From positions 630,654 through 694,653 of the forward strand of contig JBMNHG010000002.1 of assembly GCA_050950285.1 (NCBI GenBank): 64,000 bases of DNA, in the 5' to 3' direction. This document shows positions 34,601-60,948 of this stretch, one piece after another; within the stretch, counting starts at the first letter, position 1; every line of letters starts with the position of its first letter. The DNA is from Kiritimatiellia bacterium. GTDB lineage: Bacteria; Verrucomicrobiota; Kiritimatiellia; RFP12; JBMNHG01. The position numbers and the translations under genes are program-made. The notes below the pieces were generated by a model that was not told where the DNA came from, did not search any database, and was given only the letters and a program-made list of their open reading frames with translations.

Positions 34601-36221
34601 CACCAACAGCGCCAGCGGCGTGCCGCACAGCCCGCTGGCCTACACCTACGACCTGCTTAACCGCGTCACGTCACGAAACGCCGACACCTTTGATTACAAC
34701 GCCAGAAGCGAAGTCACATCCGCCATCATCCAGCCCGCCCACACCAACCGCTACGCCTTCGACAACATAGGCAACGCGCTGTGGGCCTCGCTTAACTCCG
34801 TCACGAACATCTACACCGCCAACGAACTGAACCAGTATTTCCTGATTTCCAATCATGTCAATCATGTCAATCCTGTCCAAATTTCTCCCGTATACGATTT
34901 AGACGGAAATATGACGTGGGACGGGCGTTTCAACTACACGTATGATGCCGAGAACCGCCTTGTCGCCGCCTATTCCAACGGCCTGTGCGTAGTCTTCAAC
35001 GCCTACGATCATCTTAGCCGCCGCGTGTTGAAAATCTCACGCGGAGGCGCGGAGACACGGGGATTTGTCTACGACGGCTGGCTGCCGGTTCTCGAAATCG
35101 TCGCCACCGCCTCGGGCGTGACCACCAACCACTACGTTTGGGGTAAGGATATTTCCGGCACGCTTCAAGGCGCAGGTGGTGTAGGCGGTTTGCTGGCCGT
35201 CTCACTTAACGGTGCGTGGTACTTCCCCTTCTATGACAACAACGGCAACATCATGGCCTACGCCGACGAACAGGGTACCATCGTCGCCGAGTACGCCTAC
35301 GACGCCTTCGGGCGCACCATTGAGGCTACCGGCTCCATGGCCGACGCCTTCCGCCACCGCTTCAGCACGAAATATTACGATGCCGAAACCGGCCTCTACT
35401 ACTACGGCTACCGGTTCTATGATCCCGAGTTGATGAGATGGTTCAACAGGGATCCGACTAGGGAGAATGGGGGTTGGAACCTATATGCCTTTGTCGTAAA
35501 CGATCCATGCAACAAGATTGACGCCCTTGGTCTTGAATGGACAGTTAATCGGAACGGCTTTTCACAAGCTGATGCCGACTGCAAGTGCGATAACGTCGAG
35601 GAACTCGCAAAAAGGATAGGCCTTGAGGTTGCCGATTATCAGAAGTGGCTCTCTCAGGCAGACGGCCACCCTCTCCCATCTTCCGCGACTGAGGTCATGA
35701 AAAAACGTAAATTCCGGATACCCAATATCGTTTATGCCTACTGGGCGGGCGATGTCGGTTGGACGGGAAAAACGTGGGTCAACTGGAATTCCAGTATCAT
35801 CCACCTCAAGAACTTGGGGTTTGCCACCATCGCGCACAATCATACAGCAGGCAGCAGTTACGTGCTTCAAAACATACTGCAAGTTGCCGCCAGCAGTCGA
35901 GCATTGCACGGCCTGTATTACTGGGGGCACGGCTGGGCTCCATATCCGTCCTATGGCCTCACGACGTCAGGTGGCGATGACGTAGTCTACTATCGCAATG
36001 TCACGTTTGCAGATGGCACGGCTAAGTCAGGAGTCAGTTTGCCATACAAGATGGCGCTCGGACTCATCTATGCTTGCGATAGCAACAGCGGCAAGCCAGC
36101 ACTTTTTTCTGGAGCACCTGGCGGTATATGGCATGGGTATTCGGGAGCTCTCTATCCGATCATTCCGTTTCGCTATCATGTCAATTCACACATCCATCAT
36201 GGGGATCAGGAGACGAAGTGA
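28609..36221 (+). CDS. Full-length RHS/YD-repeat polymorphic toxin (~2500 aa), with an apparent frameshift cluster at ~31750-31845
   Basis: ORF 28609-32085 gives the N-terminal half (hydrophobic segments, DxDGDG repeats). ORF 28635-36221 gives the YD repeats, the core (FSTKYYDAETGLYYYGYRFYDP...NRDP), the cleavage motif NDPCNKIDALGL and a lower-GC tip. Could be a pseudogene or an assembly error. Confidence 0.85.
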
Positions 36222-36680: not shown

Positions 36681-39600
36681 ATGGAACAGCTACGCGATAG
36701 TGCCTACAACCACCTGAGCCGCCGTGTTCTGAAGATCACCGCAACCGCGACGCACACCTACGACTACGACGCCACCGGATGCCGGATCGACATCCGGGTG
36801 TCCGAATCCAGCGACCATCCCGCCGTCACGAACAGCGTGACCCGCCACGACTTCCTCGGGCACGTCGCCGAAGCGGCCACGCCGCTCTCCCGCACGGAAT
36901 ACGCCTACCACGGCAGTTCGCGCCGCATCGCGTCGGAAACGGAAATCCGCTCCGGTCGCGTCACGACGCCCCTCTACGACGAACTCGGCGACGTCATCGG
37001 CAGCGTGGCCGACGGCGTGGCGTCGATGTCGCTCGCCACCTACGAACTGCGCTCCAACGCCTGGTGGCGCGTCGCGACCTCCTTCCTGACGGCCGACGGC
37101 CGGACCAACGGGCTTTCCGTGTCCCGCACGCGCCTGACGGGGCTTTCCAACGCCCTGCGCGCCTGCGTCGAAACCGAGGCCGACGGCGCGACCACGCGCG
37201 TCGCCACGTCGTTCGACCCGGTCGCCAAGGTGTCCACCGACACCCTCGAACGTACCGGCATGGCGACCACGACGCGCAAGCGCATGTTCGGGCGGGAGAT
37301 CGAGGCGACGGACGCCGACGGCGTCACCCGCTACAACTACTTCGACCCCTACGGTCGCGTCTACCTCACGCGGGAGTTCACGGGCGAACGCTTCCACTGG
37401 CGCACCCTCGCCATGCGCAACGATGTCGGCGACGTCTACGCCTCGGCGCGTTTCATCGGCGGCACCCCGCACTGGAACAACGTCGCCCGGTTCAACGGCT
37501 TCGACTCGCGCGGCAACCTCGTCGCCTCCACCAATGAAATGGGGTACGTCACGCATTCGCTCTTCGACTCCGCCGGACGCCTCGCCGTGCGCTTCGGCGC
37601 CGTCCATCCGGTGGGCTACGGCTACGACGCGACGGGGCGCCTGAAGTCCCTCTTCACCACGCGCAACGGCGCAACGTGGGACGTCACGCAGTGGAACTAC
37701 GACCCCGCCACGGGGCTGGTCACCAACAAGGTCTATGCCGACGGCTCCGTTCTTGCGCATGGCTGGACGCCCGACGGCCTGCCGGAGCGCACCACCTGGG
37801 CGCGGGGCGCATGGCGTCATGTCGCGTACAACGACCGGCGGCTTCCCGCCGCCGTCTCGTACTCCGACCCCGGCACGCCGGGCCATGAATTGTCCTACGA
37901 CGCCTTCGGGCGGCTCGTCGCCGTGGCCGACGCCGCCGGACGCCGCCACGGCTACGCCTACGGCGTTCCCGCCGCCTCGCCGACGAACGAGACCGCCGCC
38001 GCGGACTCCGCCACGAACGCCATCGCCCGAATCCTCGACGCCAACAGCCGCCCGGTCTCCACGACCTTGCGCATCAACGACGCACCGCGAGGCGGGGTGT
38101 GGCATGCCTATGCGGACTCGGGCAGGCTGGCGCAGGTCGCCGCCACCAACGCCCAGGGGCGAGGGCTTGTGGCCGCCTACACCAACTTTGCCGGGTGGCC
38201 TGTCGGCCATTCGGTCGAACTGCCCTCCGGCGCGGTCTTCACGCGGACGCTCGCGCGCGACGCCTACCGCCCGAACCGCGTCACGTCCATTGTCCATGCG
38301 TTCGACGGCGTGGAGATCAGCCGATACACGCACACCTTCGATGCGCTCGACCGTCTTTCCGCCCGCAACGCCGACACTTTCGGCTACAACGTCCGTTCGG
38401 AAGTGGTGTCCGCCACCGTCGCATCCAACGAATACGCCTACGCCTACGACCACATAGGCAACCACACGACCGCCTCAGTCAACTCTGCCACGACGACCTT
38501 TGAAGCCAACGCCCTGAACCAATACACATCCTTCTCAAATCTTGTTCAATCTTGTAATCCTGTCTATGATGCTGACGGCAACATGCTGACCAATGGCGTG
38601 TGGTCTTACACGTGGGACTGCGAGAATCGGCTTGTCACGGCATGCTCAAACAACGTCTGCGTTGTATCCAACGCCCACGACTACCTTTCCCGCCGCGTCC
38701 TGAAGGCCACGCCCGAGGCGGTTCACGCCTTCGTCTACGACGGCTGGAACTTGATTCACGAAACCGTGACGGCGGGCAACGGCGACGTGTCTGAAATCCA
38801 GTACTTCTGGGGGCCTGGCCTCTCCGGCACACTGCAAGGCGCGGGCGGCGTCGGCGGTCTTCTGGCCGTTTCCATCAACGGGCAGTTCTACCTGCCCTGC
38901 GTTGACAACAACGGCAACATCGCCGCCTATGTTGGTGAATCTGGTTCTATCGTAGCGGAGTATGTCTATGACGCCTATGGCGGCACCATAGCTGCTTCCG
39001 GCTCGATGAGCGACACCTTCCGCCACCGCTTCAGCACGAAGTACTATGATGCTGAAACCGGGCTTTACTACTATGGCTGTCGTTTTTACGATCCCGTTCT
39101 CCACCGCTGGCTCAACCGTGATCCGATCCAAGAAAAAGGCGGGGCGAATCTGTATGCGTTTTGCGGCAACAATGGAATAAACATCATTGATTTACTGGGG
39201 AAGCAGGGTGTAACGGTTTATAGAATCCATGCCATTGGGGACTCGATGACCTATGGTGTGCGCACAAAAACGGATCCGCTGATGGCACCCAAAGACCCTT
39301 GGGATCTTGCCCACAGGAAACGTCTGGAAAACATACAGAACCAAGGTTGGCGCGGATACCTGAAGCAAAAGCTTGATCGCGCAAGTTCGGGGAAGGCATA
39401 TCGGTTTGAGTTCTCGGGGAATTATCCAGCTTCCGATGATCCCGGGAACATCCGCCACGACGGCTATCCGGGAGACAAAGCGGGGAAGATCTATGAAAGA
39501 ATTCAACAAGGCCAGATTGTCTGTAAGGAAGACGACATCTATATCTTGTTGATTGGGATGAACGATGCGCTCAATCTTGGTGTCGAACTCGCAAATGGGG

Positions 39601-46246: not shown

Positions 46247-47500
46247 ACTTCATCCGTTAATTCCGATACAACAACCTACACGGCAAATGCCCTGAACCAG
46301 TATTCTCAGATTTCTGTGCTTTCTGTGCCTTCTGTGGACAATCTCGTCTACGACTTGGATGGCAATCTGCTGACCAATGGCGTGTGGTCGTATGCCTATG
46401 ATGCCGAGAACCGCCTGATTGCAGCATACTCAAACAACGTCTGCATCGTTTCCAATGCCTATGACCACATGAGCAGGCGCGTGGTGAAGTGGACACCGTG
46501 CCACACAACCACCTTCGTCTATGACGGTTGGAATCTCGTTCAGGAAACGATTTCAACCGCATCCGGCACGACAACCAACCATTACGTTTGGGGCAAAGAC
46601 CTCTCCGGCACGATGCAAGACTCGGGCGGAGTGGGCGGTCTTTTGGCGGTTCAGTTGAGCGGCTCTTGGTATTTTCCATTCTATGACAACAAGGGAAATG
46701 TCATGGCCTATGTGGATGAGGGTGGTGCCGTTGTGGCTGAATACGTTTATGACGCTTTTGGCGCGACTGTAGCAAAGTCGGGTAGCATGGCGGATGTCTT
46801 CACTTACCGCTTCAGCACGAAGCACTTTGATTCTGAAACATGCTTTTACTATTACGGCTATCGCTTCTATGATCCCATCATGCATCGCTGGCTTAACCGT
46901 GATTCCATCGAGGAAGAAGGTGGACTGAATTTGTATGCTTTTTGTGGGAACGATGGAAATCAGGTGGATCTCCTAGGTCTGCAAAAATGTCCATGCACAG
47001 TCGAATCCTTTGAGCTTACTGTTAAGGGATGGACTGGGGCATGGCCTAATTTTCTCGGGGTGTATTCAAAACAACTCGTTGTCAAGTTCAAGCTTAAACT
47101 CAAAGCACCAGCGACCAAAGCAGATTGCGTAATCGAACAATACATGTTGGGAGAAACAAAAACTAAAGGATCACCACATGATAAATTTGAGGAGTGGGAG
47201 GCGGATCGACCATCATGGCCAACTGCTCCGTTCTGGCATCCAACCACAGGATGGGGGATTAGTGGTGGTAAATGGAACCGAGAAGGGAGGGTGGCTACTT
47301 GGGAAGATGGACCAGGTTTTCTAGGGTTGAGAGAAAAGGATTTTCCGGTCTACTACGGAGGCGTGGGTGGCTTTGGTAGATTTCAATTCAAAACACAAGT
47401 CCGCGATTGGGCGCCGGCACATGTTGTGTCGGAACTCACCTGGGGCTTGTTGATCGACTTTTCAACACCCAAATCGGGGCGGTTTTATTTTTACCTCTGA
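46247..47500 (+). pseudogene. Orphan RHS cassette 3, 3' part: RHS core plus an unassigned toxin tip (~170 aa)
   Basis: FSTKHFDSETCFYYYGYRFYDP...QVDLLGL followed by a lower-GC, Trp/Gly-rich tip. Confidence 0.85.
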
Positions 47501-49519: not shown

Positions 49520-52048
49520 ATGGTCTACGTCGACCGCCTCGCCGTTCGCAACGCCGACGCCTTCGGCTACAACTCCCAAAACGAAGTCGCGGCGGCAACC
49601 CAGCATTTCTTCGACGCGCTGGGGCGCGAGACCAACACGGTGGAGCGGTGCGCCAGAATTGAAGGCGCGCTGACCAATTCCGCCGCCGTCCACAACCGCG
49701 GCTGGGTGTCTTCCGAGACAACGGCCTATCCCTTCGGCATTTCCGACTACTCCGTCCACACCGACAAGCGCGGATTGCAAACCGTGGCGTTCTCCATCCC
49801 CTCGTCCGAGGCCGTGACCTCGGCCCGGTACGTCTTCGTTTCGCCGGAGGAGGAGAACCCCGCCATCATCGAAACCAGCACCTTCTTCCGAAACGGGCGC
49901 AGCGTTTCCACGCGGTACTGGGCAGGAGGGTGGTCGCGCGAGACGCGCTTCTCCCAATATGCGGAAGACGGCACGCGAAGCGACTTCGCCGTGTCCGAGG
50001 GCTCCGACTTCGACGGAGCGGTTACAAACTCGGTCGTGCAATTCGACTTCCTCCAGCGTGGCATCGTCCAGACCACGCCGCTTGAATCCGTCACGAACCT
50101 CTACGACGGGGCGAGTTCGCGCATCGTCCGCGTCCTGTCGTCGGCGTCGCCTGCCGTCACGCCCCTTTACAACGACCTCGGCGAACGCATCGGCGCGACG
50201 AGCGCCGGAGTCACCACGCTCTCGCAGGAAACCTACGAGACGGTTTCAAACGAAACGTGGCGCGTTTTCAGCAGCCTTCAAATCGCGGATGGCACCACCA
50301 ACCGCCTCGGCGTTTCGCGCTCCCGGCGCACGGGGCTTTCCAACGCCCTGCGCCGCCATGAAATCGTCACGGACGCCTCGGGCGCGACGACCGCCTCGAC
50401 CGCGTCGTTCGATCCGGAAAGCGGCATCCTCACCGTTGTTTCGACGACCGACGAACAAACGCCGGTCATCCGAAAGAGGCGATACGGACGGGACGTTGAA
50501 ATCAGCGACGCCACGGGAACCTGCTACCTGAAGCACGACCCGTTCGGTCGCGAATACATGCGCCGCCGGGACAACAAAACCTTGCACGGCCTACCCGCTG
50601 GACGGGAGGGTTTTCGACGACTGCGGCGATCTCGCCATCTCCCTTGTCTGCGAGCACGACAGCGCGACCTTCCTCGTCAAGTCCTTTGCATACGATTCCT
50701 TCGGCAATCTCGCCGAGATGCAAAACGAGATGGGTGAAACCGTCCTCAACGACCACGACGCCCTTGGAAATCTTTTGTGCCAATACGGCTCGGCGGCCCA
50801 TCCCGTCGGCTTCGACTATGATACCAGGGGGCGCATGAATGCGCTCGGCACCACTCGCGAAGGCGACGCCTGGGACGTCACGTCCTGGATTTACGACCGC
50901 GCCACCGGCCTTGTCGGCAGCAAGGTCCATGCCGACGATTCGGTCGTGTCCTACGCCTACACCCCGGACGGCAAGCCGCTTCGCACCACCTGGGCGCGGG
51001 GGGCTTGGAGGGAAAACGCCTACAATGCCAACGGCCTTTTGGCAGGCGTGTCGTACTCCGACGCCACACCCGCCGTTTCGCTCGATTACGACGCCTTCCA
51101 GCGTCTTGCTTCCGCCTCGAATGGCGTCGCCGCCTACACCTATGGAAACAGCGCCCTCGGCGTTGCCACGAACGAGACGGCGACGCTCGGCGGCGACGTC
51201 TGGACGTTGACACGCCGACTCGACGGCCGCCACCGCTTGGCTGGCATGTCCCTTTCGCCTGCGTCGCAGGGCGGGGGCGCGGCACCGTACTCGGTGGCGT
51301 ATGGCTACGACACCGAAGGACGCCTCGCCGCCGTCTCGAACGAGGTGTTTGCCGTTTCCTATGCATTCTCCTATCGGGGTTTGGATGCGGGCTATTCGCT
51401 TGCGTTGACCAACGGGGTTTCGTTGAACCGGGCATTGGCTCGCAACGGTTGGCGGCACGAACTGGTTCGCCGAGTGACCAACGCGACCTCCACGGGCTGG
51501 ACGAACACGCTCAACTACGCCTACGACGACGCGGGGCGCGTCACCGCCCGCAACGCCGACACCTTCGGCTACAACGCCCGAAGCGAGGTCACCAACGCAA
51601 CCCTGGGAGCCATAAACTACGCCTACGCCTACGACCACATAGGAAATCATACGGCTTCATCCGTTGATTCCGCGACCACGATTTACGAAGCCAACAGCCT
51701 GAACCAGTACACAACTATTGACACCATCACACCAAGCTATGATGCCGACGGGAACATGACATGGGACGGGCGTTTCAGCTATGCGTATGATGCCGAGAAT
51801 CGCCTGATTGCGGCGTATTCCAACACTGTCTGTATCGTTTCCAACGCCTATGACCATGCCAGCCGCCGTGTGTTGAAGTGGACACCGTGCCACACAACCA
51901 CCTTCGTTTATGACGGTTGGTTGCCAATCCTTGAGATTATTGCCACCGCCTCGGAAGTTGCCACAAATGCCTATGTATGGGGCAAAGACCTCTCCGGCAC
52001 CCTGCAAGGCGCGGGCGGCGTCGGTGGACTGCTTGCTGTTTCACTAAA
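49520..52048 (+). pseudogene. Orphan RHS cassette 4, 5' part (frameshift near 50580; interrupted by IS1380, then intron 1)
   Basis: HFFDALGRETNT...YD repeats...GAGGVGGLLAVSL. Continues at 53769-53806 (NDSWHFPLYDNNG) and at 55741. Confidence 0.85.
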
Positions 52049-53763
52049 CCTAAAAAGAGCAGTTGAACTTTCAAGTTATCATCCGGAGCATCATTTGGTC
52101 GCCTTCTGAGACTGGGTAGAGCACCCTTCCGCGCAGCCATTTGACGAACGCCGCCGACAAAATGATCGCCCAGACCTGCCCGGCGCTCAACTGCTCCGCA
52201 ATTGCCGCGAGGTTGTTCATGAACCTGCCGATCCTGTCCAGGACGAGGCGGACCTGTCCGCCCAGGGCGTGCGTCGAGGTCAGGCGCACGATCTTCCGGC
52301 GGCCGGTGGTGACCAGCCGGCCGACCGCGTGGAGCAGCAGGGGCCGGGATGTGACCGCCTCCATGTGGGTGTCCGGCCGGGCGAGGCGCGTGAAGATGTT
52401 CCACCAGTTGTAGACCAGGGCGACGATGCGGGCGATGATGCGGCAGCGCCGCAGGTCGCGGGTCACGAAGCCGCCCCAGCCCCACTGGTTCTTGATCTCG
52501 TCGAACACGTTCTCGCAGTCCGCCCGGTCCCTGTACAACTGGGACAGGGCCATGGCGTCCAGGGTTCCGTCGTTGGTCACCAGCACGGCATAGTCCCATG
52601 TCCGCGCGTCCGTGACCTCCGGGGCGAAGGCGAACTCCGGCCCGGAGGGGCGGGGCGGCTCCGCGCGCGCGGGGCGGCGCAGGAACACGCACCGGTCGCT
52701 CGGCTGTCCAGCCGGCCAGCTTCAGGCGGCTCTCGGACGCCCGCCAGCCCTCGCCGGCGTCGGTCCACGCCCGGCCGGGCGCCGCCAGCTCCCGGAGCCG
52801 CGACTTGATCTTCGGCGAGCGCCTCAGCTTGAACAGGTAGGGCTGCCCGCGCGCCTCGGCCTGCGCCATGACCTTCTCGCTGCCGTAGCCCACGTCCCCG
52901 CGTATCAGCCGCGGGCGGCACCCGGGCGGAAGCGAGTCGATGAGCTTCCACAGGCCGGGCATGCCGCAACCCCCCGAGTGCTGCTTCCCGGGCTGCACGT
53001 CGACGCCCAGCACGAGGCGCAGCGCGCCGATGAAGTACGTGTGGCAGTTGTGGCTGGGCCGCCCCGGCTTCTTGGGGTTGTAACCCAGCTCCGCGCCCTC
53101 CTGATGGCCGTAGAGCGGCTTGACCGTGCTGTCGATGTCCAGGACGTACGCCTCGGCGAGCAGCGGCTCGACGACCGTCCGCTCCAGCCCCGCCAGCCAC
53201 GTGTCCCAGGCCTCTTCCGTCCCGCGGCCCAGCGCCCTGCGGACGCTGTCTTCGGACACCACCTTGCCAAGCCCCAGGACCTCGGCCCCGACGCGGTCGG
53301 AACGCAGCGCGTTGATGTGGGCGTAACGCGTCTGCCCGTTGAGGACGGAAAGCAGCAGCGTCCCCATCACGTCGCGCGCGGCGGGGGCATTGTTGCTCTT
53401 GTACTCCAGCGGCGAGGAGTCGCAGAAACGATCCGGCAGGCCGCCGGTCTTAAGGTACTGGGCGAAGAACACGACGGAGCCCGTCGGCGTCACTTTCGCG
53501 TCGGCGTCCCACTCCACTTCGAAGCATCCGCCGCCCCCGCGGACCAGCAGCCTGCGGATCTCCGCTTGATCCAGAAGCGCCCCTGTGCCATCATTCCCAT
53601 ACGCAACGGTGTCGTTCATCCTATACTCCTTTTTTTAGGTTCAATCAGAAGTATAGGGCGCACCGTTGCGTTTTGCACCAAATAGGTGCGGCGCGAATCT
53701 CAACGAAAGCCAGTGTTTACAGGCCTTTGCTCAAAATCCGCACACCCAACTGCTCTTTTTAGG
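52049..53763 (-). mobile_element. IS1380-family insertion sequence, 1715 bp
   Basis: Perfect 17-bp IRs CCTAAAAAGAGCAGTTG (52049-52065 and 53747-53763); 5-bp TSD CTAAA (52044-52048 and 53764-53768). Confidence 0.92.
52071..53619 (-). pseudogene. IS1380-family transposase with one frameshift near 52690
   Basis: LDIDSTVKPLYGHQEGAELGYNP and IRGDVGYG in one frame; LYRDRADCENVFDEIKNQWGW in the next frame. Confidence 0.85.
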
Positions 53764-53806
53764 CTAAATGATTCGTGGCATTTCCCGCTTTACGACAACA
53801 ATGGAA

Positions 53807-55740
53807 GTGCGCCAAGCGAAGCTCGGCGCTTCTTGCGGGGTGCGAGTCCCCGCCGAGTAAGGACCAGCCACCCACTCGTACCGAGTGTTGGCACTATGGA
53901 AGAGGAGTCGAATCCGAATGAAGTAGTGTAAGCGTACACAGGGAACTCCGCAGGCCGCAGGGGGGATGCACCCTCCCGAAGCGGTTCAGCCTCGTTAAGC
54001 GATCATGCGCAGGGCGACATGCTTGCCGTCATGGAAGCCAGCAACAAGGACGCGCAAGGGCTTGCGTCCGGTGACTGCGCCGGGGTCTACGGCGCGCGGC
54101 ATGCGGGGAGAGAAGCGAACGGGAACTTGGGAGACCCGCCGCCGTCCGCGCCCTGCGAGGGGCGTGGTAGCGTCCGCCGAGCCGAAAGGGAAGGCGGCGC
54201 GACGCGGCGGCGGGAGTCAGACCGCCCCATAGTACTCCGAGACGGGCGAGCCGGTCACACGGGGAAGGGGGCGGCGGGGCTGCGAAGCCCGCAAAGGGAA
54301 CAGGCAAGGACGGATATGAGAGGCTGTCAAACACTGCAAACCTCACTGCGGGGAATAGCGGATCGGGCGCGACGCGACCCGAAGGCGCGATTCCGCGACG
54401 TGTACAGGCTGCTCGACGAGGCGAACCTGCGCGAGTGCTTCCGAGCGCTGCGCAGGGACGCCGCGCCGGGGGTTGACCGGGTGACGTTCGATGATTACGA
54501 GCGCGACCTGGAGGCCAATCTCTCGGCACTGGTCGAGCGGCTCAAGCACAAGCGGTACCGCGCCCGACTGGTGCGCAGGGTGTACATCCCGAAGGGAGGC
54601 GGGAAACTGCGTCCCCTCGGAATCCCTGTGCTGGAGGACAAACTGCTGCAAATGGCCGTGGCGAAGGTGCTCACGGCGATCTACGAAGAGGACTTCCTGC
54701 CGGCGAGCCGGGGCTACCGTCCCGGCGGCGACGCCCGCGAGACGAGCCGCGAATGGGCGGCGAGGCTCGGCGGGGGGAGCTACGCGTGGGTGGTCGATGC
54801 GGACATCAAGGGCTTCTTCGAGCATGTCGATCACGACTGGATGCTCAGGATGCTGGAGCTTCGCATCGACGACAAGCCGTTTCTGCGGCTGGTGCGCAAA
54901 TGGCTCAAGGCGGGAGTGCTCGAAACGGACGGACGGGTGCTGCATCCGACGGAAGGGACGCCCCAAGGCGGGGTGGTCTCGCCGGTGCTGGCGAACGTCT
55001 ACCTGCACTACGCGCTGGATCTCTGGTTCGACCGCGTGGTCAGGAGGACGACGCCGGGCCGATGCGTGATGCTGCGCTACGCCGACGACTTCGTGGTCGC
55101 CTTCGAGCGGCGCGAGGACGCGGAACGCTTCCTTGGGGAACTGCCCGGGCGACTGGGCAAGTTCGGCCTGGAGCTGTCGGGGGAGAAGACGCGGCTGGTG
55201 CGCTTCGAGCGGGGCAACCCGTCGGGCGACAACGGCGGCTTCGACTTCCTGGGGTTCCAGTACCACTGGGAGCGTACGCGAAACGGACGCTGGAAGGTGC
55301 AGCGCCGGACGGCTCCGAGCCGTCTCCGGCGGTCGGTGGAACGCTTCGCCGAGTGGATCAAGGCCAACCGGGGCGGACGCCTGCCCGTTCTCATGGAACG
55401 GCTGGGGCGCAAGCTCGCGGGGTACTGGCAGTACTACGGCGTGACGGGCAACGGGCGCAGCCTGTGCAAGTTCTGGAGGCAGGTGGTGGCTGGGCTCTAC
55501 AAGTGGCTCAACCGCAGAAGCCAGAAGCGGGGCTTGACCTGGGTCCGTCTCAATGCGATCCTCAAGCGCCACGGGGTGCCGGGACCGCGGATCACCGAGA
55601 GCGGGCAGATGCTGTTTTCCTTCATGGGGGCGCGTTGAAGACCGAGTGCAAAGCGAGCAGTCCCGAAGAGCCCGGTGCGGGAATTCCGCACGCCGGGATC
55701 CGTGCGGGGGGCGCCCGGCAACGGGCGTCCCTACCGCGAT
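53807..55740 (+). mobile_element. Group II intron 1 (1934 nt, En-minus)
   Basis: 5' GTGCG; domain V GAGCCCGGTGCGGGAATTCCGCACGCCGGGATC at 55668-55700; domain VI hairpin with a bulged A; 3' end ...CGAT. Removal gives GAC AAC AAT GGA A|AC ATC ACG GCC = DNNGNITA. Confidence 0.95.
54316..55638 (+). CDS. ltrA: Group II intron reverse transcriptase/maturase
   Basis: APGVD, IPKGGGKLRPLGIP, VVDADIKGFF, GTPQGGVVSPVLANVYLH, RYADD, FDFLGF, domain X; no HNH domain. Confidence 0.95.
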   Translation: MRGCQTLQTSLRGIADRARRDPKARFRDVYRLLDEANLRECFRALRRDAAPGVDRVTFDDYERDLEANLSALVERLKHKRYRARLVRRVYIPKGGGKLRPLGIPVLEDKLLQMAVAKVLTAIYEEDFLPASRGYRPGGDARETSREWAARLGGGSYAWVVDADIKGFFEHVDHDWMLRMLELRIDDKPFLRLVRKWLKAGVLETDGRVLHPTEGTPQGGVVSPVLANVYLHYALDLWFDRVVRRTTPGRCVMLRYADDFVVAFERREDAERFLGELPGRLGKFGLELSGEKTRLVRFERGNPSGDNGGFDFLGFQYHWERTRNGRWKVQRRTAPSRLRRSVERFAEWIKANRGGRLPVLMERLGRKLAGYWQYYGVTGNGRSLCKFWRQVVAGLYKWLNRRSQKRGLTWVRLNAILKRHGVPGPRITESGQMLFSFMGAR

Positions 55741-56684
55741 ACATCACGGCCTATGTTGACGAGAACGGCACCATCGTGGCGGAATATACCTACGATGCCT
55801 TCGGCCGCACCATCGCGGCAACCGGATCTCTAGCCGACGCCTTCCGCCACCGTTTCAGCACGAAATATTACGATGCCGAAACCGGTCTCTACTACTACGG
55901 CTACCGGTTCTACGCCCCCGAGTTGATGCGGTGGCTGAACCGGGATCCGATTGGAGAGGCCGGGGGTGACAGCCTATACATATACTGTGGAAACAATCCT
56001 TCGGATAATTTTGATTCACATGGTCATGTCTGGGTTGTAAATAGAAAAGCAGAACTACCATATGCAATTGCAATAGCAAATCATGATAATGACAATTTTG
56101 ACGATCTGGCGGAATTGCTGGGATTAGATAGTAAGGACTACACTGACTGGGCTCATACCTCCGACTCCTCTGCAATAAAATGCAAGGAATACAAAATACC
56201 TAACACCATATATTACCAACATGGGCAGCTTAAGCTGCACGATCATGTTTTCTCCAATATAATTAACATATGGCGCAATCAGAATCTTCAGCAAGCCGAT
56301 CTTGATCGTGAAAGCAAATTCCATGTTATATGGCAGGAGAATGTCGCGGATAACGCTATTTCAGAAGCATTAGGCAATCCATATTTATATCAATATATTT
56401 TCACCGGGCATGGAGCGCTGGATGGTATAATTAACTCATACAAGAGTGAAGGTATAATGCCGGGGAGATATACCAAATATGGCATAAATTTGTTGCGATT
56501 AAATGCGTGTGGAAGTGCAGACAAAGGACTTGTTGCTTCAAAGGGGATATTTTATAAGTATAACGAGTGGGAATGGAACGTTGCTGTTCGGGGTAAATTT
56601 GTTGGATATGCCGGAGAGATAAACACTTTCACTGAAGTTCTTGGTTGGCGCATAACTTTGGGCAAGAACAGGAAAGGATATTGA
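55741..56684 (+). pseudogene. Orphan RHS cassette 4, 3' exon: core end plus a tip homologous to the main-gene tip
   Basis: ITAYVDENG...FSTKYYDAETGLYYYG...NNPSDNFDSHGH, then an AT-rich tip with YIFTGHG and LNACGS. Confidence 0.85.
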
Positions 56685-57205
56685 TGACAACACGCATGTT
56701 TAAAGGTTTTTTTGGGGGTGATTTCGTTTTTCGTGGCTGCAGGCTATGTGCCGTTGTTAGCCTTGTATTGCTTCTGGTCGGAATTTTCATATCCCCCTTA
56801 ACGCGCTCAAAAGAAACAGAAACTAAAAACATTATTAGGCAAGTATACGCACTTGTCGAATACGTCGCATTTGCCAATGGACTCAGTTCGGAAGATCTTC
56901 TATCAGCACAATCGGAAACCAATACCCCTGCATTATTCTTGGAAAGCATTACTAGGCAAGCTCTTTCTGAAGGTCTCGCTCCGCCTTCCTTAAAGAACGG
57001 GACAATAACTGACCGGTGGGGAAGGCAGCTTAATGTCGCATGGCGTTACAGTCTAGCCGAGAATGGTGATGCCAAGAGATTGTCACAGTATCCCTCGATA
57101 TTTGTTGTCTGGTCTTCAGGAAATAACGGGATAAACGAGTTCGGGGATGGAGATGATGTGAGTTTGCCGCCTCACATGTTTAGCTGTAACCATGTTGCAG
57201 ATTGA
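56684..57205 (+). CDS. Putative immunity protein; membrane anchor plus a GspG-like C-terminal motif
   Basis: TGATG overlap with the toxin stop; one TM helix; DRWGRQL...FVVWSSGNNGINEFGDGDDV. Confidence 0.6.
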   Translation: MTTRMFKGFFGGDFVFRGCRLCAVVSLVLLLVGIFISPLTRSKETETKNIIRQVYALVEYVAFANGLSSEDLLSAQSETNTPALFLESITRQALSEGLAPPSLKNGTITDRWGRQLNVAWRYSLAENGDAKRLSQYPSIFVVWSSGNNGINEFGDGDDVSLPPHMFSCNHVAD

Positions 57206-57249
57206 AGTAACATCACAAGCACACCAATCTAATACATTGGAGCGCGAAG

Positions 57250-57619
57250 ATGCACTTTATAATCACTGATCGCCAACATAAAGACACCGCCATCACCTAT
57301 GGCGGCGACACACCCGCCATCGCGCTTACCTACGCCTACACGTCCGACAACCGTGATGAGGGCTACACCATCACACTGCCCAACGGCATGCTCCTCTCCC
57401 GTACCGTCATCCACGACCCCTACCGACGCAGTCTGGTAAAAGCCATCACCAACAGCGCCAGCGGTGTGCCGCACAAACCGCTGGCCTACACCTACGACCT
57501 CCTCAACCGCGTCACGTCACGAAACGCCGACACCTTTGATTACAACGCCCGCTCCGAGGTCACTTCCGCCATCATCCAGCCCGCCCACACCAACCGCTAC
57601 GCCTTCGACAACATAGGCA
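57250..57619 (+). pseudogene. Orphan RHS cassette 5, 5' exon (short internal RHS fragment)
   Basis: 57450-57619 is close to the main gene at ~34600-34773 (PLAYTYDLLNRVTSRNADTFDYNARSEVTSAIIQPAHTNRYAFDNIG). Left boundary is approximate. Confidence 0.82.
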
Positions 57620-59551
57620 GTGCGCCAAGCGAAGCTCGGCGCTTCTTGCGGGGTGGAAGTCCCCGCCGAGTAAGGACCAGCCATCCACTCGTACCGAGTG
57701 TTGGCACTATGGAAGAGGAGTCGAATCCGAATGAAGTAGTGTAAGCGTACACAGGGAACTTCGCAGGCCGCAGGGAGGATGCACCCTCCCGAAGCGGTTC
57801 AGCCCCGTTAATTGATCATGCGCAGGGCGACATGTTTGCCTACATGGAAGCCAGCAACAAGAACGCGCAACTGGCTTGCGTCCGGTGACTGCGCCGGGGT
57901 CTACGGCGCGCGGCATGTGGAGAGAGAAGCGAACGGGAACTTGGGAGACCCGTCGCCGTCCGCGTCCGCGAGGGCGCGGTAGCGACCGCCGAGCCGAAGG
58001 GGAAGGCGGCGCGACGCGGCGGCGGGAGTCAGACCGCCCCATAGTACTCCGAGACGGGCGAGCCGATCACACGGGGAAGGGGGCGGCGGGGCTGCGAAGC
58101 CCGCAAAGGAAACAGGAAAGATGGACACGACAGGCTGTCAAACACTGCAAACCTCACTGCGGGGAATAGCGGATCGGGCGCGACGCGACCCGAAGGCGCG
58201 ATTCCGCGACGTGTACAGGCTGCTCAACGAGGCGAACCTGCGCGAATGCTTTCGGGCGTTGCGAAGGGACGCCGCGCCGGGGATTGACCGGGTGACGTTC
58301 GACGACTACGAACGCGACCTCGACGCCAACCTCGCGGCGTTGGTCGAGCGGCTCAAGCACAAGCGGTACCACGCCCGACTGGTGCGCAGGGTGAACATTC
58401 CAAAGGGGGGCGGGAAACTGCGTCCCCTCGGAATCCCTGTGCTGGAGGACAAACTTCTGCAAATGGCCGTGGCGAAGGTGCTAACGGCGATCTACGAAGA
58501 GGACTTCCTGCCGGCGAGCCGGGGCTACCGTCCCGGCGGCGACGCCCGCGAGGCCAGCCGCGAATGGGCGGCGAGGCTCGGCGGGGGGAGCTATGCGTGG
58601 GTGGTCGATGCGGACATCAAGGGCTTCTTCGAGCACGTCGATCACGACTGGATGCTCAGGATGCTGGAGCTTCGCATCGACGACAAGCCGTTTCTGCGGC
58701 TGGTGCGCAAATGGCTCAAGGCGGGGGTGCTCGAAACGGACGGACGGGTGCTGCATCCGACGGAGGGGACGCCCCAAGGCGGGGTGGTCTCGCCGGTGCT
58801 GGCGAACGTCTACCTGCACTACGCGCTGGATCTCTGGTTCGACCGCGTGGTCAGGAGGACGACGCCGGGCCGATGCGTGATGCTGCGCTACGCCGACGAC
58901 TTCGTGGTCGCCTTCGAGCGGCGCGAGGACGCGGAACGCTTCCTTGGGGAACTGCCCGGGCGACTGGGCAAGTTCGGCCTGGAGCTGTCGGGGGAGAAGA
59001 CGCGGCTGGTGCGCTTCGAGCGGGGCAACCCGTCGGGCGACAACGGCGGCTTCGACTTCCTGGGGTTCCAGTACCACTGGGAGCGTACGCGAAACGGACG
59101 CTGGAAGGTGCAGCGCCGGACGGCTCCGAGCCGTCTCCGGCGGTCGGTGGAACGCTTCGCCGAGTGGATCAAGGCCAACCGGGGCGAACGCCTGCCCGTT
59201 CTCATGGAACGGCTGGGGCGCAAGCTCGCGGGGTACTGGCAGTACTACGGCGTGACGGGCAACGGGCGCAGCCTGTGCAAGTTCTGGAGGCAGGTGGTGG
59301 CTGGGCTCTACAAGTGGCTCAACCGCAGAAGCCAGAAGCGGGGCTTGACCTGGGTCCGTCTCAATGCGATCCTCAAGCGCCACGGGGTGCCGGGACCGCG
59401 GATCACCGAGAGCGGGCAGATGCTGTTTTCCTTCATGGGGGCGCGTTGAAGACCGAGTGCAAAGCGAGCAGTCCCGAAGAGCCCGGTGCGGGAATTCCGC
59501 ACGCCGGGATCCGTGCGGGGGGCGCCCGGCAACGGGCGTCCCTACCGCGAT
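57620..59551 (+). mobile_element. Group II intron 2 (1932 nt), variant of intron 1
   Basis: Same 5' GTGCGCCAAGCGAAG and 3' CCCTACCGCGAT ends. Removal gives GAC AAC ATA GGC A|AC TTG CTG ACC = DNIGNLLT. Confidence 0.95.
58121..59449 (+). CDS. ltrA: Group II intron reverse transcriptase/maturase
   Basis: Nearly identical to 54316-55638; intact YADD. Confidence 0.95.
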   Translation: MDTTGCQTLQTSLRGIADRARRDPKARFRDVYRLLNEANLRECFRALRRDAAPGIDRVTFDDYERDLDANLAALVERLKHKRYHARLVRRVNIPKGGGKLRPLGIPVLEDKLLQMAVAKVLTAIYEEDFLPASRGYRPGGDAREASREWAARLGGGSYAWVVDADIKGFFEHVDHDWMLRMLELRIDDKPFLRLVRKWLKAGVLETDGRVLHPTEGTPQGGVVSPVLANVYLHYALDLWFDRVVRRTTPGRCVMLRYADDFVVAFERREDAERFLGELPGRLGKFGLELSGEKTRLVRFERGNPSGDNGGFDFLGFQYHWERTRNGRWKVQRRTAPSRLRRSVERFAEWIKANRGERLPVLMERLGRKLAGYWQYYGVTGNGRSLCKFWRQVVAGLYKWLNRRSQKRGLTWVRLNAILKRHGVPGPRITESGQMLFSFMGAR

Positions 59552-60948
59552 ACTTGCTGACCAACGGCGTTTGGTCTTACACGTGGGACTGCGAGAATCG
59601 GCTTGCCACGGCGTCCTCAAACAACGTTTGCGTTGTTTCCAACGCCTACGACTACCTTTCCCGCCGCGTCCTGAAGGCCACGCCCGAGGCGGTTCACGCC
59701 TTCGTCTACGACGGCTGGAACTTGATCCACGAAACCGTGACGGCAGTCAACGGCGACGTTTCGGAAATCCAGTACTTCTGGGGGCCCGACCTCTCCGGCA
59801 CGCTCCAAGGCGCGGGCGGCGTCGGCGGCTTGCTGGCCGTTTCCATCAACGGGCAGTTCTACCTGCCTTGCGTTGACAACAACGGCAACATCACCGCCTA
59901 TGTTGGAGAAACTGGCTCTGTCGTGGCAGAGTATGTCTATGACGCCTATGGAGGCGCCATTGCCCAAACCGGAAGCATGGCAGATGCCTTCCGCCATCGT
60001 TTCAGCACAAAATACTACGACGTAGAAACGGGGCTTTACTACTACGGACGCCGGTTCTACTCGCCAACGCTCCACCGCTGGCTCAACCGTGATCCGATCC
60101 AAGAACAAGGAGGGGCGAATCTGTATGCGTTTTGCAGAAATGATGGAGTGAACGCCGTGGATTTGCTGGGGCTTGCCTTGTATGCCTTTGATGGAACCTG
60201 GAATGACAAGGACAAAATGAAGCGTCCGACCAATGTCGCCAAGCTATATGAAGCTTACCAGAATCCAAGCAAAGTATACATGAAAGGAATTGGAACAGCC
60301 TCCTTGACAAGGGTGATCGGCGGCATAACGGGCGCTGGTGGTAAAAGCCGAGTTCATGCTATGTATCGTAGGCTTGTGAAATTTTACAATACACCTGATT
60401 CAACTGGCGAAAATCAAAAAATTGATGTCATCGGCTTCAGTCGTGGCGCAGCGCTTGCGCGCGATTTCGTGAACTACATCAACGAGCAAGGCGGCGTGCC
60501 CAGAACGACGAAAAACGGCAAGGAAATTGTTTGCCCCGTGACGATTCGCTTCCTGGGCCTTTTTGACACGGTGGCCTCCTTTGGGATACCCGGAAATGGC
60601 GTAAACCTCGGATACGATCTCTCCATCCCCGGCAACGTGGAACAGGTTCGCCATGCGATTGCCCAAGATGAATATCGCGGCATGTTCCCCCTCTCGCCCG
60701 TTTTGGATCCGGACGGGACCGGTGTCGATCCAAGAATCGTTGAACGTCCCTTCCGGGGCTCGCATTCTGATATCGGCGGAGGATATGACGTTGGAGACCG
60801 ATCGAATTTCGCCTTGAACTGGATGTATCACGAGGCCATCCGAGTGGGCGTGCCCTTTGGGCCGCTCAATCCCGAAGACATCGGCGCAAGCGATCCGGTC
60901 ATGCACGACACCGGAGGCACGGGGCCCCGGGACATCGATTACCCATAA
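59552..60948 (+). pseudogene. Orphan RHS cassette 5, 3' exon: RHS core plus a Tle1/DUF2235 phospholipase-like tip
   Basis: Core is close to cassette 2 from 38581; AVDLLGL then FDGTWND, TNVAKLY, IGFSRGAALAR, FLGLFDTV, HAIAQDEYR, FRGSHSDIGGGY. Confidence 0.9.

What the first reader, a model, noticed from the sequence alone, without database searches (positions are those of the whole stretch)
54018..57846. The EBS1 loop differs between the two introns and fits two different RHS target sites
Seen: the CATG-loop-CATG hairpin holds TGCCGT in intron 1 (54024-54029) and TGCCTA in intron 2 (57837-57842). UGCCUA pairs perfectly with the last six nt of the intron 2 5' exon, TAGGCA. UGCCGU pairs perfectly with ACGGCA, found at the equivalent empty sites in three other cores (35242, 38911, 59882), and with its own ATGGAA through one wobble and one mismatch. 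Inference: natural retargeting by a 2-nt guide change within one locus. The EBS1 assignment is by position and complementarity. ACGGCAAC also occurs outside RHS, so other determinants must contribute.
Basis: partly seen in the sequence, partly recalled or inferred. Interest (0 to 1): 0.82.

Follow-up and report, generated by a model that had tools for sequence, protein, structure and literature searches.

The report
Intron guide loop tracks RHS sites
Two copies of a mobile self-splicing intron sit inside bacterial RHS toxin genes, and the six-letter guide loop each uses to recognise its insertion site differs as expected for two different sites; this is normal behaviour for such introns, seen here in an unusual home.

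Summary
Both elements are full group II introns: 53807-55740 and 57620-59551. They match Rfam RF02005 at 102 and 103 bits, and each has an intact reverse transcriptase/maturase gene with no endonuclease domain.

The last six bases of the CATG-loop-CATG hairpin are EBS1, the intron's guide for its 5' exon. Across 21 distinct copies from this genome, related genomes and metagenomes, all six EBS1-IBS1 pairs show changes on both sides. 112 of 126 cells pair, and no shuffle or slid register comes close.

The lineage sits in sense orientation inside the D-N-x-G|N codons of YD repeats in RHS genes.

The "2-nt retargeting within one locus" reading is only partly right:
- The genome carries four guide variants. 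One of them, UGCCGA, is a one-step intermediate between the two window guides.
- The two window introns differ at 65 positions.
- A second short pairing, a tentative EBS2 with exon -9..-11, also differs between them.
- 65 of 73 RHS-type sites in the assembly are empty.
- In three of eight intron loci both flanks are RHS sequence from different site types, and the copies are mosaics. This points to recombination between copies, or to misassembly.

Guide divergence is already known from Thermosynechococcus and rhizobial introns. The RHS niche appears unreported.

The parts
53807..55740 (+). Group II intron 1 (1934 nt): 5' GTGCG, 3' ...CGCGAT
   Evidence: RF02005 at 53843-54095 scores 101.8 bits against a gathering score of 49. 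BLAST finds 8 full copies in the genome at 95-100% identity.
53801..53806 (+). IBS1 of intron 1 (ATGGAA), the last six bases of a 5' exon remnant
   Evidence: RHS-like sequence reaches only about 38 nt upstream. Window 53650-53768 is a repeat found at 99-100% identity at three other places in the genome and lies next to a DDE transposase gene.
53999..54001 (+). Candidate EBS2 core triplet of intron 1 (GCG), in the internal loop 5' of the EBS1 arm
   Evidence: It pairs with its own exon -9..-11 (CAA) at 1 of 3 positions. It would pair 3 of 3 with the empty site at 38563-38580. Tentative, chosen after looking at the data.
54013..54039 (+). EBS1 hairpin of intron 1. EBS1 is TGCCGT at 54024-54029.
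   Evidence: The hairpin is in the RF02005 model alignment. Covariation is shown.
54316..55638 (+). Intron-encoded protein of intron 1 (440 aa)
   Evidence: Pfam RVT_1 E=6.1e-33. GIIM scores 20.8 bits, below the cut-off of 23. No other family was reported at E<=0.001.
55666..55740 (+). Domains V and VI of intron 1, with a bulged A 8 nt from the 3' end
   Evidence: RF00029 scores 36.2 bits, under its gathering score of 40; E=4e-6 in a 131-nt search. Fold energy is -54.1 kcal/mol, z=-2.99.
55741..56684 (+). 3' exon of intron 1: end of an RHS core, then a C-terminal tip
   Evidence: It starts ACATCACGG, like the empty sites. 33 paralogous stretches start at this junction.
57314..57619 (+). 5' exon of intron 2: an RHS core fragment of the type here called 2A. 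IBS1 is TAGGCA at 57614-57619.
   Evidence: 30 paralogues reach the junction at up to 96.5% identity.
57620..59551 (+). Group II intron 2 (1932 nt)
   Evidence: RF02005 at 57656-57909 scores 103.3 bits.
57812..57814 (+). Candidate EBS2 core triplet of intron 2 (TTG)
   Evidence: It pairs 3 of 3 with exon -9..-11 (CAA). Tentative.
57826..57852 (+). EBS1 hairpin of intron 2. EBS1 is TGCCTA at 57837-57842.
58121..59449 (+). Intron-encoded protein of intron 2 (442 aa)
   Evidence: Pfam RVT_1 E=4e-33; GIIM 21.2 bits.
59552..60948 (+). 3' exon of intron 2: an RHS core end of a different paralogue family (2B), then a tip. It contains the empty site at 59882-59887.
   Evidence: 11 paralogues start at the junction at up to 95.5% identity, and none is adjacent to a homologue of the 5' exon.
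34768..34773 (+). Empty site 2A (TAGGCA|ACGCGCTGTGG) in the 2528-aa RHS gene; a perfect match to intron 2's EBS1
35242..35247 (+). Empty site 1 (ACGGCA|ACATCA)
38575..38580 (+). Empty site 2B (GATGCTG-ACGGCA|ACATGCTG). It matches intron 1's EBS1 6 of 6 and its candidate EBS2 triplet 3 of 3.
38911..38916 (+). Empty site 1 (ACGGCA|ACATCG)
59882..59887 (+). Empty site 1 (ACGGCA|ACATCA), 331 nt downstream of intron 2 in the same module

Best explanation
The CATG-loop-CATG hairpin is the EBS1 stem-loop of domain I of a group II intron of Rfam type RF02005. Its protein has reverse transcriptase and maturase regions but no endonuclease domain.

The last six loop bases pair with the last six bases of the 5' exon (IBS1). 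This pairing fixes the 5' splice site and, by reverse splicing, the DNA insertion site.

The lineage lives in sense orientation in the conserved GAY-AAY-NNN-GGN-A|AY (D-N-x-G|N) codons of YD repeats in RHS toxin genes. It always lies between codon positions 1 and 2 of the Asn codon. The variable exon positions -6, -5 and -2 are tracked by guide variants UGCCGU, UGCCGA, UGCCUA and UUCCGU.

Intron 2's guide is a perfect fit to its own site. Intron 1's guide is a perfect fit to ACGGCA sites, although it sits at AUGGAA. A short second pairing adds specificity: a triplet in the internal loop 5' of the hairpin pairs with exon -9..-11.

Shown here: the structure-model match, the covariation and the site census. 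Inferred: that the guide differences arose by selection for new sites, and that the copies still splice and move. Recombination between the near-identical copies has since re-sorted guides, exons and flanks.
For: Structure model:
- RF02005 hits score 101.8 and 103.3 bits against a gathering score of 49, and the hairpin is inside the model.
- 5' GUGCG, and a domain V/VI match that ends exactly at ...GAU.
- RVT_1 E about 1e-33.

Covariation:
- 26 copies had both a 5' flank and the hairpin, giving 22 distinct exon/loop combinations. The two tandem combinations, whose 5' flank is another intron, were dropped.
- In the remaining 20, 107 of 120 cells pair. Ten rows pair 6/6, eight 5/6, one 4/6 and one 3/6.
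- Dealing the loops out among the exons gave a mean of 80.8 and a maximum of 99; 0 of 20,000 permutations reached 107.
- Sliding the exon window by 1-4 nt gave 30-55. Other loop registers gave 35 and 58.
- On alignment A1 (21 rows), all six IBS1-EBS1 pairs change on both sides and 88.9% of cells pair. The hairpin stem has 4 of 4 compensatory pairs. The whole structure pairs at 94.9% against a shuffle mean of 80.9% (0/500) and 19-48% when slid.
- An unbiased scan of every 5-nt window in the first 330 nt against every exon offset ranked this loop at exon -1 first.
- A contig from an RNA library carries exon ...ACGGAA with loop UUUUCCGU, a 6/6 fit.

Site census: 28 sites of type 2A (4 occupied), 38 of type 1 (4 occupied) and 7 of type 2B (0 occupied).

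Related copies elsewhere also lie after Y-D-x-x-G codons (L044, L063/L070, L068).

Candidate EBS2: 49 of 63 cells pair against a shuffle mean of 50.5% (0/500), and 22-46% when slid.
Against: - Ten of the 20 distinct combinations have at least one mismatch. L060 pairs at only 3 of 6.
- Intron 1 itself has a mismatch at -2, the second base pair from the splice site.
- Most cognate sites are empty: 65 of 73. These include perfect matches within 25 kb of both window introns. The copies may therefore move rarely or not at all.
- No spliced or empty-site joint for intron 2 was seen in the four runs laid, so activity is unshown.
- RF00029 (36.2 bits against 40) and GIIM (about 21 bits against 23) both fall under their curated thresholds.
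- The EBS2 triplet was chosen after looking at the data. Two of its five measures are not above the shuffles (172/500 and 102/500). It fails for intron 1, C8:821093 and L015.
- The sequences are close kin: all share a 24-nt exact 5' end. Cell counts therefore overstate the number of independent events.
Confidence: 0.85

Rival explanations
1. The guide differences are neutral drift in copies that no longer move. The fit of intron 2 to its exon and of intron 1 to ACGGCA sites is coincidence within a GC-rich, repetitive locus.
For: 65 of 73 RHS-type sites are empty. No splicing or empty-allele joint was seen. ACGGCA is common, with 85 copies in the window.
Against: - Covariation on both sides at all six pairs, with unrelated exons (GCCCCA, UCCUCG, CCGUUG, UCGGUA) each matched by their own loop.
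- All 8 full copies keep an open reverse transcriptase frame, and six of them differ from one another by only 11-32 positions in about 1,930.
Confidence: 0.07
2. Intron 1 did not home into AUGGAA with a mismatched guide. Its guide region (EBS1 UGCCGU and triplet GCG) was brought there by recombination or gene conversion from a copy that lived at an ACGGCA site of the Y-D-A-D-G-N kind (type 2B). The guide-to-site pairings in this locus therefore reflect shuffling among copies as much as retargeting.
For: - Intron 1's guide and triplet are the same as those of L070 and L072, which sit at GACGCTGACGGCA sites with 6/6 pairing.
- Both fit the empty 2B site at 38575 and not intron 1's own exon.
- Intron 2's 3' exon is of type 2B, although no intron in the assembly has a 2B 5' exon: 0 of 9 5' junctions.
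- Intron copies are mosaics: 294 of 666 informative site pairs fail the four-gamete test.
Against: - Both flanks of intron 1 are of site type 1. A simple ectopic insertion with 4 Watson-Crick pairs and 1 G-U also explains it.
- An uninterrupted paralogue with AATGGAA exists at C8:744058.
- The mosaic pattern could come from assembly of near-identical repeats.
Confidence: 0.4
3. The chimeric flanks and mosaic intron sequences are assembly artefacts caused by a 1.9-kb repeat at 95-99% identity and by dozens of RHS paralogues. In the real genome every intron has matching flanks.
For: - Two copies lie at contig ends (C7, C12).
- C12's flank duplicates C3:239767-240168 at 100%.
- C6:16155 (1A 5' flank, 2A 3' flank) and C8:817490 (2A 5' flank, 1A 3' flank) are reciprocal and would both resolve by one swap.
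- No contig in the four runs laid spans a whole intron.
Against: - Intron 2's 2B 3' junction has no assembled 2B 5' junction to swap with.
- The reciprocal pair is also what one inversion between inverted copies would give.
- This rival does not touch the EBS1 result, because EBS1 lies 218 nt from the 5' junction.
Confidence: 0.3

Closest known systems
Thermosynechococcus elongatus TeI3/TeI4 group II introns (Mohr, Ghanem and Lambowitz 2010, PMC2882425; passages read)
   Same: - One intron proliferated within a genome and split into families defined by their EBS sequences.
- Most copies sit at sites with one or no mismatch, and some at poorer sites.
- One pair of copies was read as an exon-shuffling homologous recombination between two introns.
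   Different: - Those introns belong to an endonuclease-bearing lineage related to EcI5. They sit mostly in intergenic DNA, insertion sequences and other introns, and they differ in EBS1, 2 and 3.
- Here the protein lacks an endonuclease domain, and the targets are paralogous codons of one protein-repeat family in sense orientation.
- Mobility was measured there and not here.
RmInt1, RmInt2 and Sr.md.I1 of Sinorhizobium (Martinez-Rodriguez et al. 2014, PMC4615759; abstract and section 9 read)
   Same: [quoted passage not shown]
- Related introns in one genus have different target sites.
[quoted passage not shown] The candidate pairing here has a similar linker at -7 and -8.
   Different: - Their natural homes are insertion sequences, stated from recall and from no call. 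Here the homes are protein-coding repeats.
- Their EBS2 is a 5-nt stem-loop sequence defined by selection experiments. Here only a 3-nt core is inferred from covariation.
- The best plasmid-borne relatives of this protein are only about 42% identical, and class membership was not established.
Ll.LtrB and Ef.PcfG introns in relaxase genes (LaRoche-Johnston, Bosan and Cousineau 2020, PMC7947834; abstract read)
   Same: - A group II intron sits at a conserved site inside paralogous or orthologous protein genes.
[quoted passage not shown]
   Different: - Those are endonuclease-bearing introns at a single site per gene, with functional chimeras shown by experiment.
- Here there are at least three site types per RHS gene family in one codon phase, eight loci in one genome, and no functional test.
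Group IIE and IIF introns (Nagy et al. 2013, PMC3753933; passages read)
   Same: Small bacterial IIB-like ribozymes in which EBS1-IBS1 is essential. An apparent, covarying EBS2-IBS2 is dispensable for self-splicing and was proposed to serve homing.
   Different: Membership of this intron in IIE or IIF was not tested. Their EBS2 is a pairing of at least 5 bp directly upstream of IBS1.

Membership tests
Group II intron (ribozyme) | Domain I-IV fold matching a curated covariance model | tested here: met
   RF02005 group-II-D1D4-6 scores 101.8 and 103.3 bits against a gathering score of 49, over the full model 1-225.
Group II intron (ribozyme) | 5' GUGYG and 3' AY boundaries | tested here: met
   GTGCG at 53807 and 57620...CGCGAT at 55740 and 59551. 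The boundaries agree with uninterrupted paralogues.
Group II intron (ribozyme) | Domain V hairpin and domain VI with a bulged branch-point A | tested here: inconclusive
   RF00029 scores 36.2 bits, under its gathering score of 40. It was found only in a 131-nt search (E=4e-6) and not in the 11-kb or window searches. The fold shows a 2-nt-bulged hairpin, then a hairpin with a UA bulge 8 nt from the end.
Group II intron (ribozyme) | EBS1 in a domain I hairpin loop pairing with the 3' end of the 5' exon | tested here: met
   6 of 6 pairs show changes on both sides, and 112 of 126 cells pair.
Group II intron (ribozyme) | EBS2-IBS2 pairing (IIA and IIB types) | tested here: inconclusive
   The tip loop of the long stem is a GNRA tetraloop in some members and does not covary. 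A 3-nt core in the internal loop pairs with exon -9..-11 in 49 of 63 cells. It was chosen after the fact, and 2 of 5 measures are not above the shuffles.
Group II intron (ribozyme) | 3' exon recognition (delta-delta' or EBS3-IBS3) | not tested
   The base 5' of EBS1 is U in all 21 rows of alignment A1. The first 3' exon base is A at the RHS sites. With this little variation there is nothing to test.
Group II intron (retroelement) | Intron-encoded reverse transcriptase with a maturase (X) domain in domain IV | tested here: met
   RVT_1 E=6.1e-33 and 4e-33. GIIM scores 20.8 and 21.2 bits, just under the cut-off of 23. tblastn hits are annotated as group II intron reverse transcriptase/maturase, at about 42% identity.
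Group II intron (retroelement) | Splicing and retromobility in vivo | not testable with these tools
   Only contigs of public runs were available, and no intron-skipping joint was listed. This says nothing either way.
Endonuclease-less intron protein classes (A, C, D, E, F or unclassified; Toro and Martinez-Abarca 2013, PMC3552965, abstract read) | No D/En region after the maturase domain; class-specific C-terminal extension | tested here: inconclusive
   The 440-442 aa protein ends about 30 residues after the GIIM match, and no HNH or other family was reported. No labelled class references were at hand, so the class is undetermined.
RHS / YD-repeat protein genes (the host genes) | RHS_repeat (PF05593) matches in the interrupted gene family | tested here: met
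   PF05593 hits occur in the window ORFs at 28635-36221, 36681-39959, 42507-44678 and 46238-47500. The intron flanks are paralogous to these cores.

The most novel reading that the evidence does not exclude
The introns act as portable, phase-matched recombination cassettes for a polymorphic toxin family. Every copy sits between the first and second base of the Asn codon of a D-N-x-G-N repeat. Homologous recombination between any two copies (1.9 kb at 95-99% identity, against about 70% between the RHS families) therefore joins the 5' part of one RHS gene to the 3' part and toxin tip of another. Splicing would then restore one open frame. This would be exon shuffling by introns, in a bacterium, acting on toxin diversity. 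Intron 2 (2A 5' exon with 2B 3' exon) and the reciprocal pair C8:817490 / C6:16155 would be its products.
Probability: 0.3. Interest if true: 0.75.

Novelty: new member of a known kind. Interest (0 to 1): 0.5.

Why it matters
For group II intron biology this is a clean natural series of guide variants, including a one-step intermediate. They act on paralogous sites that differ at only two or three bases. That makes it a ready test bed for how much pairing an endonuclease-less intron needs at each position.

For RHS biology it shows a mobile intron family that has specialised on the most conserved codons of the YD repeat, in several PVC-group bacteria.

If the chimeric flanks are real, the introns supply long tracts of near-identity at phase-matched points in otherwise diverged toxin genes. 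This would give RHS loci a second route to rearrangement besides the known recombination at core ends.

Three searches of the held paper library found no report of group II introns inside RHS repeat cores. Only listings were seen, and subscription journals are not covered.

Tried and rejected
- **Splicing or empty-allele evidence.** Two RNA-library and two DNA runs, all kept as contigs, were laid on 57200-60000. No joint across 57619/59552 was listed and no contig spans the intron. This gives no verdict.
- **EBS2 at the tip of the long stem.** GUCGAA is complementary to (U)UCGAC at -16..-11. I rejected it as general. C8:821093 and L070/L072 lack the complementarity, and L060/L066 and L058 have GNRA tetraloops there.
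- **Unbiased scans for EBS2.** A 5-nt window scan returned only G/U-rich stem segments besides EBS1. A single-column scan gave the lead to the internal-loop triplet.
- **Intron class.**
  - No paper held maps RF02005 to a class.
  - The review PMC4424553 gave only general definitions.
  - tblastn against plasmids gave about 42% identity to many proteobacterial introns with no class labels.
- **3' exon rule.** The first 3' exon base is A at L015 and L037 and G at L028, while the neighbouring loop base never varies. This is not informative.
- **L017 (G086).** Its loop CGGAGA does not fit its 5' flank ATAGCG. It is a short ORF-less copy followed directly by another GTGCG start. It was not in the counted sets because its 5' end differs from the search pattern.
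- **Earlier notes of this scan.** Nothing was found near the finding, in the genome or by words.

Full report
**What is there**

The window holds two full copies of one group II intron on the + strand, at 53807-55740 and 57620-59551.
- Both start GTGCG and end CGCGAT.
- Both match Rfam RF02005 (group-II-D1D4-6) over the whole model, at 101.8 and 103.3 bits against a gathering score of 49.
- The domain V/VI family RF00029 did not appear in the window or 11-kb searches. In a 131-nt search it scores 36.2 bits, under its gathering score of 40, and ends exactly at the last intron base.
- The fold shows a bulged hairpin, then a hairpin with a bulged A 8 nt from the end.
- Each intron encodes a 440-442 aa protein with RVT_1 (E about 1e-33) and a sub-threshold maturase match. 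No other family was reported.

**Checking the observation**

- The hairpin is GGCGA-CATG-(8-nt loop)-CATG-GAAGCC. The loops are CUUGCCGU in intron 1 and UUUGCCUA in intron 2.
- Intron 2's last six loop bases pair 6/6 with its exon end UAGGCA.
- Intron 1's pair with AUGGAA through four Watson-Crick pairs, one G-U and one mismatch. They pair 6/6 with ACGGCA at 35242, 38911 and 59882.
- Those three places read GACAACA-ACGGCA|ACATC. Intron 1's flanks read GACAACA-AUGGAA|intron|ACATC. They are therefore uninterrupted equivalents of its site.

**Is the loop EBS1?**

The intron has 8 full and several partial copies in its own genome. It has relatives in three other genomes of the same order. An exact 24-base pattern from its 5' end found 13 genome-contig and 18 metagenome-contig loci.
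- 26 copies had both a 5' flank and the hairpin, giving 22 distinct exon/loop combinations. I dropped the two tandem combinations, whose 5' flank is another intron.
- In the remaining 20, 107 of 120 cells pair. Ten rows pair 6/6, eight 5/6, one 4/6 and one 3/6.
- Dealing the loops among the exons gave a mean of 80.8 and a maximum of 99 in 20,000 trials. Sliding the exon window gave 30-55. Other loop registers gave 35 and 58.
- Unrelated exons each have their own matching loop: GCCCCA with UGGGGU, UCCUCG with CGAGGA, CCGUUG with UAACGG, and UCGGUA with UACCGA.
- Alignment A1 has 21 rows. It was built from 27 distinct segments after leaving out 2 tandem and 4 truncated ones.
- In A1, all six IBS1-EBS1 pairs and all four inner stem pairs change on both sides. 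94.9% of cells pair against a shuffle mean of 80.9% (0/500) and 19-48% when slid.
- A scan with no prior assumption ranked this loop against exon -1 first.
- The rows are close kin, so the cells are not independent events. Even so, at least eight different guide hexamers are involved.

**What the targets are**

All RHS-borne copies lie in sense orientation after the first base of the Asn codon in GAY-AAY-NNN-GGN-A|AY, the D-N-x-G-N motif of YD repeats. The genome has three site types:
- Type 1: ...TTCTAC GAYAAY AACGGNA|ACATC, near the core end.
- Type 2A: ...GCCTTC GACAAC ATAGGCA|ACGCGCTGTGG, about 470 nt upstream of type 1.
- Type 2B: in a second RHS family, GAYSYY GAYGGMA|ACMTGCTG.

The assembly census is 38 type 1 sites (4 occupied), 28 type 2A (4 occupied) and 7 type 2B (none occupied). 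In all, 65 of 73 are empty.

The window itself holds an empty perfect site for intron 2 at 34768-34773. It also holds a fourth empty ACGGCA site, of type 2B, at 38575-38580.

Relatives in other organisms also follow Y-D-x-x-G codons (L044, L063/L070, L068). One follows ...YYGFRY in an RHS core end (L048).

**How the guides relate**

Own-genome guides are as follows:
- UGCCGU in intron 1.
- UGCCUA in intron 2, C7:32293(-) and C8:823032.
- UGCCGA in C8:817490, C3:573935, C6:16155 and C8:821093.
- UUCCGU in the ORF-less copy at C3:579713, a perfect fit to ACGGAA.

Intron 1 differs from the others at 53-93 positions. Six copies, including intron 2, form a tight cluster with 11-32 differences.

Within that cluster the guides differ by one base. 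UGCCGA pairs 5/6 with both ACGGCA and UAGGCA. It is therefore a one-step bridge between the guide that is perfect for type 1 and 2B sites and the guide that is perfect for type 2A.

**A second determinant**

The internal loop just 5' of the EBS1 arm varies between lineages (GUUAA-GCG-A, -UUG-A, -AAG-C...). Its core triplet pairs with exon -9..-11 in 49 of 63 cells. The shuffle mean is 50.5% (0/500), and slid registers give 22-46%. Two of the five measures are not above the shuffles.

I chose this pairing after seeing the data, so it is tentative. A two-base linker has a precedent in RmInt2.

If the pairing is real:
- Intron 2's triplet (UUG) fits its exon (CAA).
- Intron 1's triplet does fit the 2B site at 38575. 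It is the same triplet as in L070 and L072, which sit at GACGCTGACGGCA with 6/6 guides.

**Recombination between copies**

Only C7:32293(-) and C3:573935 have 5' and 3' flanks that lie adjacent in uninterrupted paralogues, 23 each.
- Intron 2, C8:817490 and C6:16155 have none, although each flank has 11-30 paralogues that reach the junction.
- Intron 2 joins a 2A 5' exon to a 2B 3' exon.
- C8:817490 (2A then 1) and C6:16155 (1 then 2A) are reciprocal.
- The 3' flanks of two further loci, the tandem pair on C8 and the ORF-less copy on C3, are not RHS sequence.
- Intron 1's 5' exon is cut to about 38 nt by a repeat that adjoins a DDE transposase gene.
- The intron copies are mosaics: 294 of 666 informative site pairs fail the four-gamete test, and 107 of 253 within the tight cluster.

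This explains why several guides mismatch their exons. It is also what a 1.9-kb repeat at 95-99% identity would do to an assembly. Two copies sit at contig ends, and one contig duplicates part of another. I therefore give the artefact reading 0.3.

**Comparison with what is known**

- Divergence of EBS sequences into families with different targets inside one genome was shown for T. elongatus, together with one inferred exon-shuffling recombination between introns (PMC2882425, passages).
- Related endonuclease-less introns with different targets are known in Sinorhizobium (PMC4615759, abstract and one section).
- Chimeric relaxase genes with junctions at an intron site are described for Ll.LtrB (PMC7947834, abstract).
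- EBS2 is dispensable for splicing in IIE and IIF introns (PMC3753933, passages).

The mechanism is therefore known. What looks new is the niche (the conserved YD-repeat codons of RHS genes, at several phase-matched sites per gene) and the stepwise guide series. Three searches of the held library found no paper on group II introns inside RHS cores (listings only).

**Verdict**

- The EBS1 assignment is supported.
- "Natural retargeting" is supported in kind. It is not a two-base switch between these two copies, and recombination has confounded it.
- Activity is unshown.
- The intron class is undetermined.

Noticed in passing
G000 C8:821093-824963 (loci L008, L006); also L059 and L062: Two full introns lie head to tail with no exon base between them. 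The guides of both fit the shared 5' exon UUGGUA: the upstream copy 6/6 with two G-U pairs, the downstream copy 5/6. The same tandem form occurs in two metagenome contigs. This is consistent with a second insertion at an occupied site, which still offers IBS1.
   Followed up: partly
G000 C3:579713-580409 (loci L010, L012): A 697-nt ORF-less derivative of the intron has guide UUCCGU and exon ACGGAA, a 6/6 fit. Its 3' flank is not RHS-like. It may be mobilised in trans.
   Followed up: no
G000 C12:16576-18291 versus C3:239600-240168: C12 ends in an intron copy whose 3' flank is 100% identical over 402 nt to C3:239767-240168. There the site is empty and reads TATGACAAGAAGGGCA|ATTTG (Y-D-K-K-G-N). 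This is either an occupied/empty pair of alleles or paralogues, or assembly redundancy.
   Followed up: partly
window 51937-53768: A DDE transposase gene (PF13701, PF01609) lies on the - strand. The adjoining 119 nt (53650-53768) recur at 99-100% identity at C12:6678, C3:242392 and C8:542539. This repeat truncates the RHS module that carries intron 1.
   Followed up: partly
window 36681-39959: An RHS-repeat ORF has a C-terminal GDSL-like lipase/acylhydrolase domain (PF00657, E=4.3e-9) as its tip.
   Followed up: no
L015/L052, L037/L046, L041/L055 (relatives): Copies in a related genome sit after short G+C hairpin-like sequences (GGGGACAGGCCCCA, GGGGTCTGTCCCTA), with guides to match (UGGGGU). 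L055's flank is a truncated RHS core end. Other relatives sit in TCCTCG repeats.
   Followed up: no
L048, L050: A relative with guide AGUAAC is inserted after ...HYYGFRY, a different conserved motif near the RHS core end. It pairs 5/6 with GCUAUU.
   Followed up: no
L060 versus L064 and L066: L060 carries the guide of the UCGGUA-site lineage (UACCGA) but sits at the UCCUCG site, where it pairs 3/6. This may be another case of a guide region moved between copies.
   Followed up: no
runs X15 and X16: Contigs from RNA libraries of digester and biofilm metagenomes hold a 5' exon plus intron of related copies, which is the unspliced form or carried-over DNA. The intron family is widespread in bioreactor and digester metagenomes: 14 DNA runs hold half or more of the sampled words.
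   Followed up: partly
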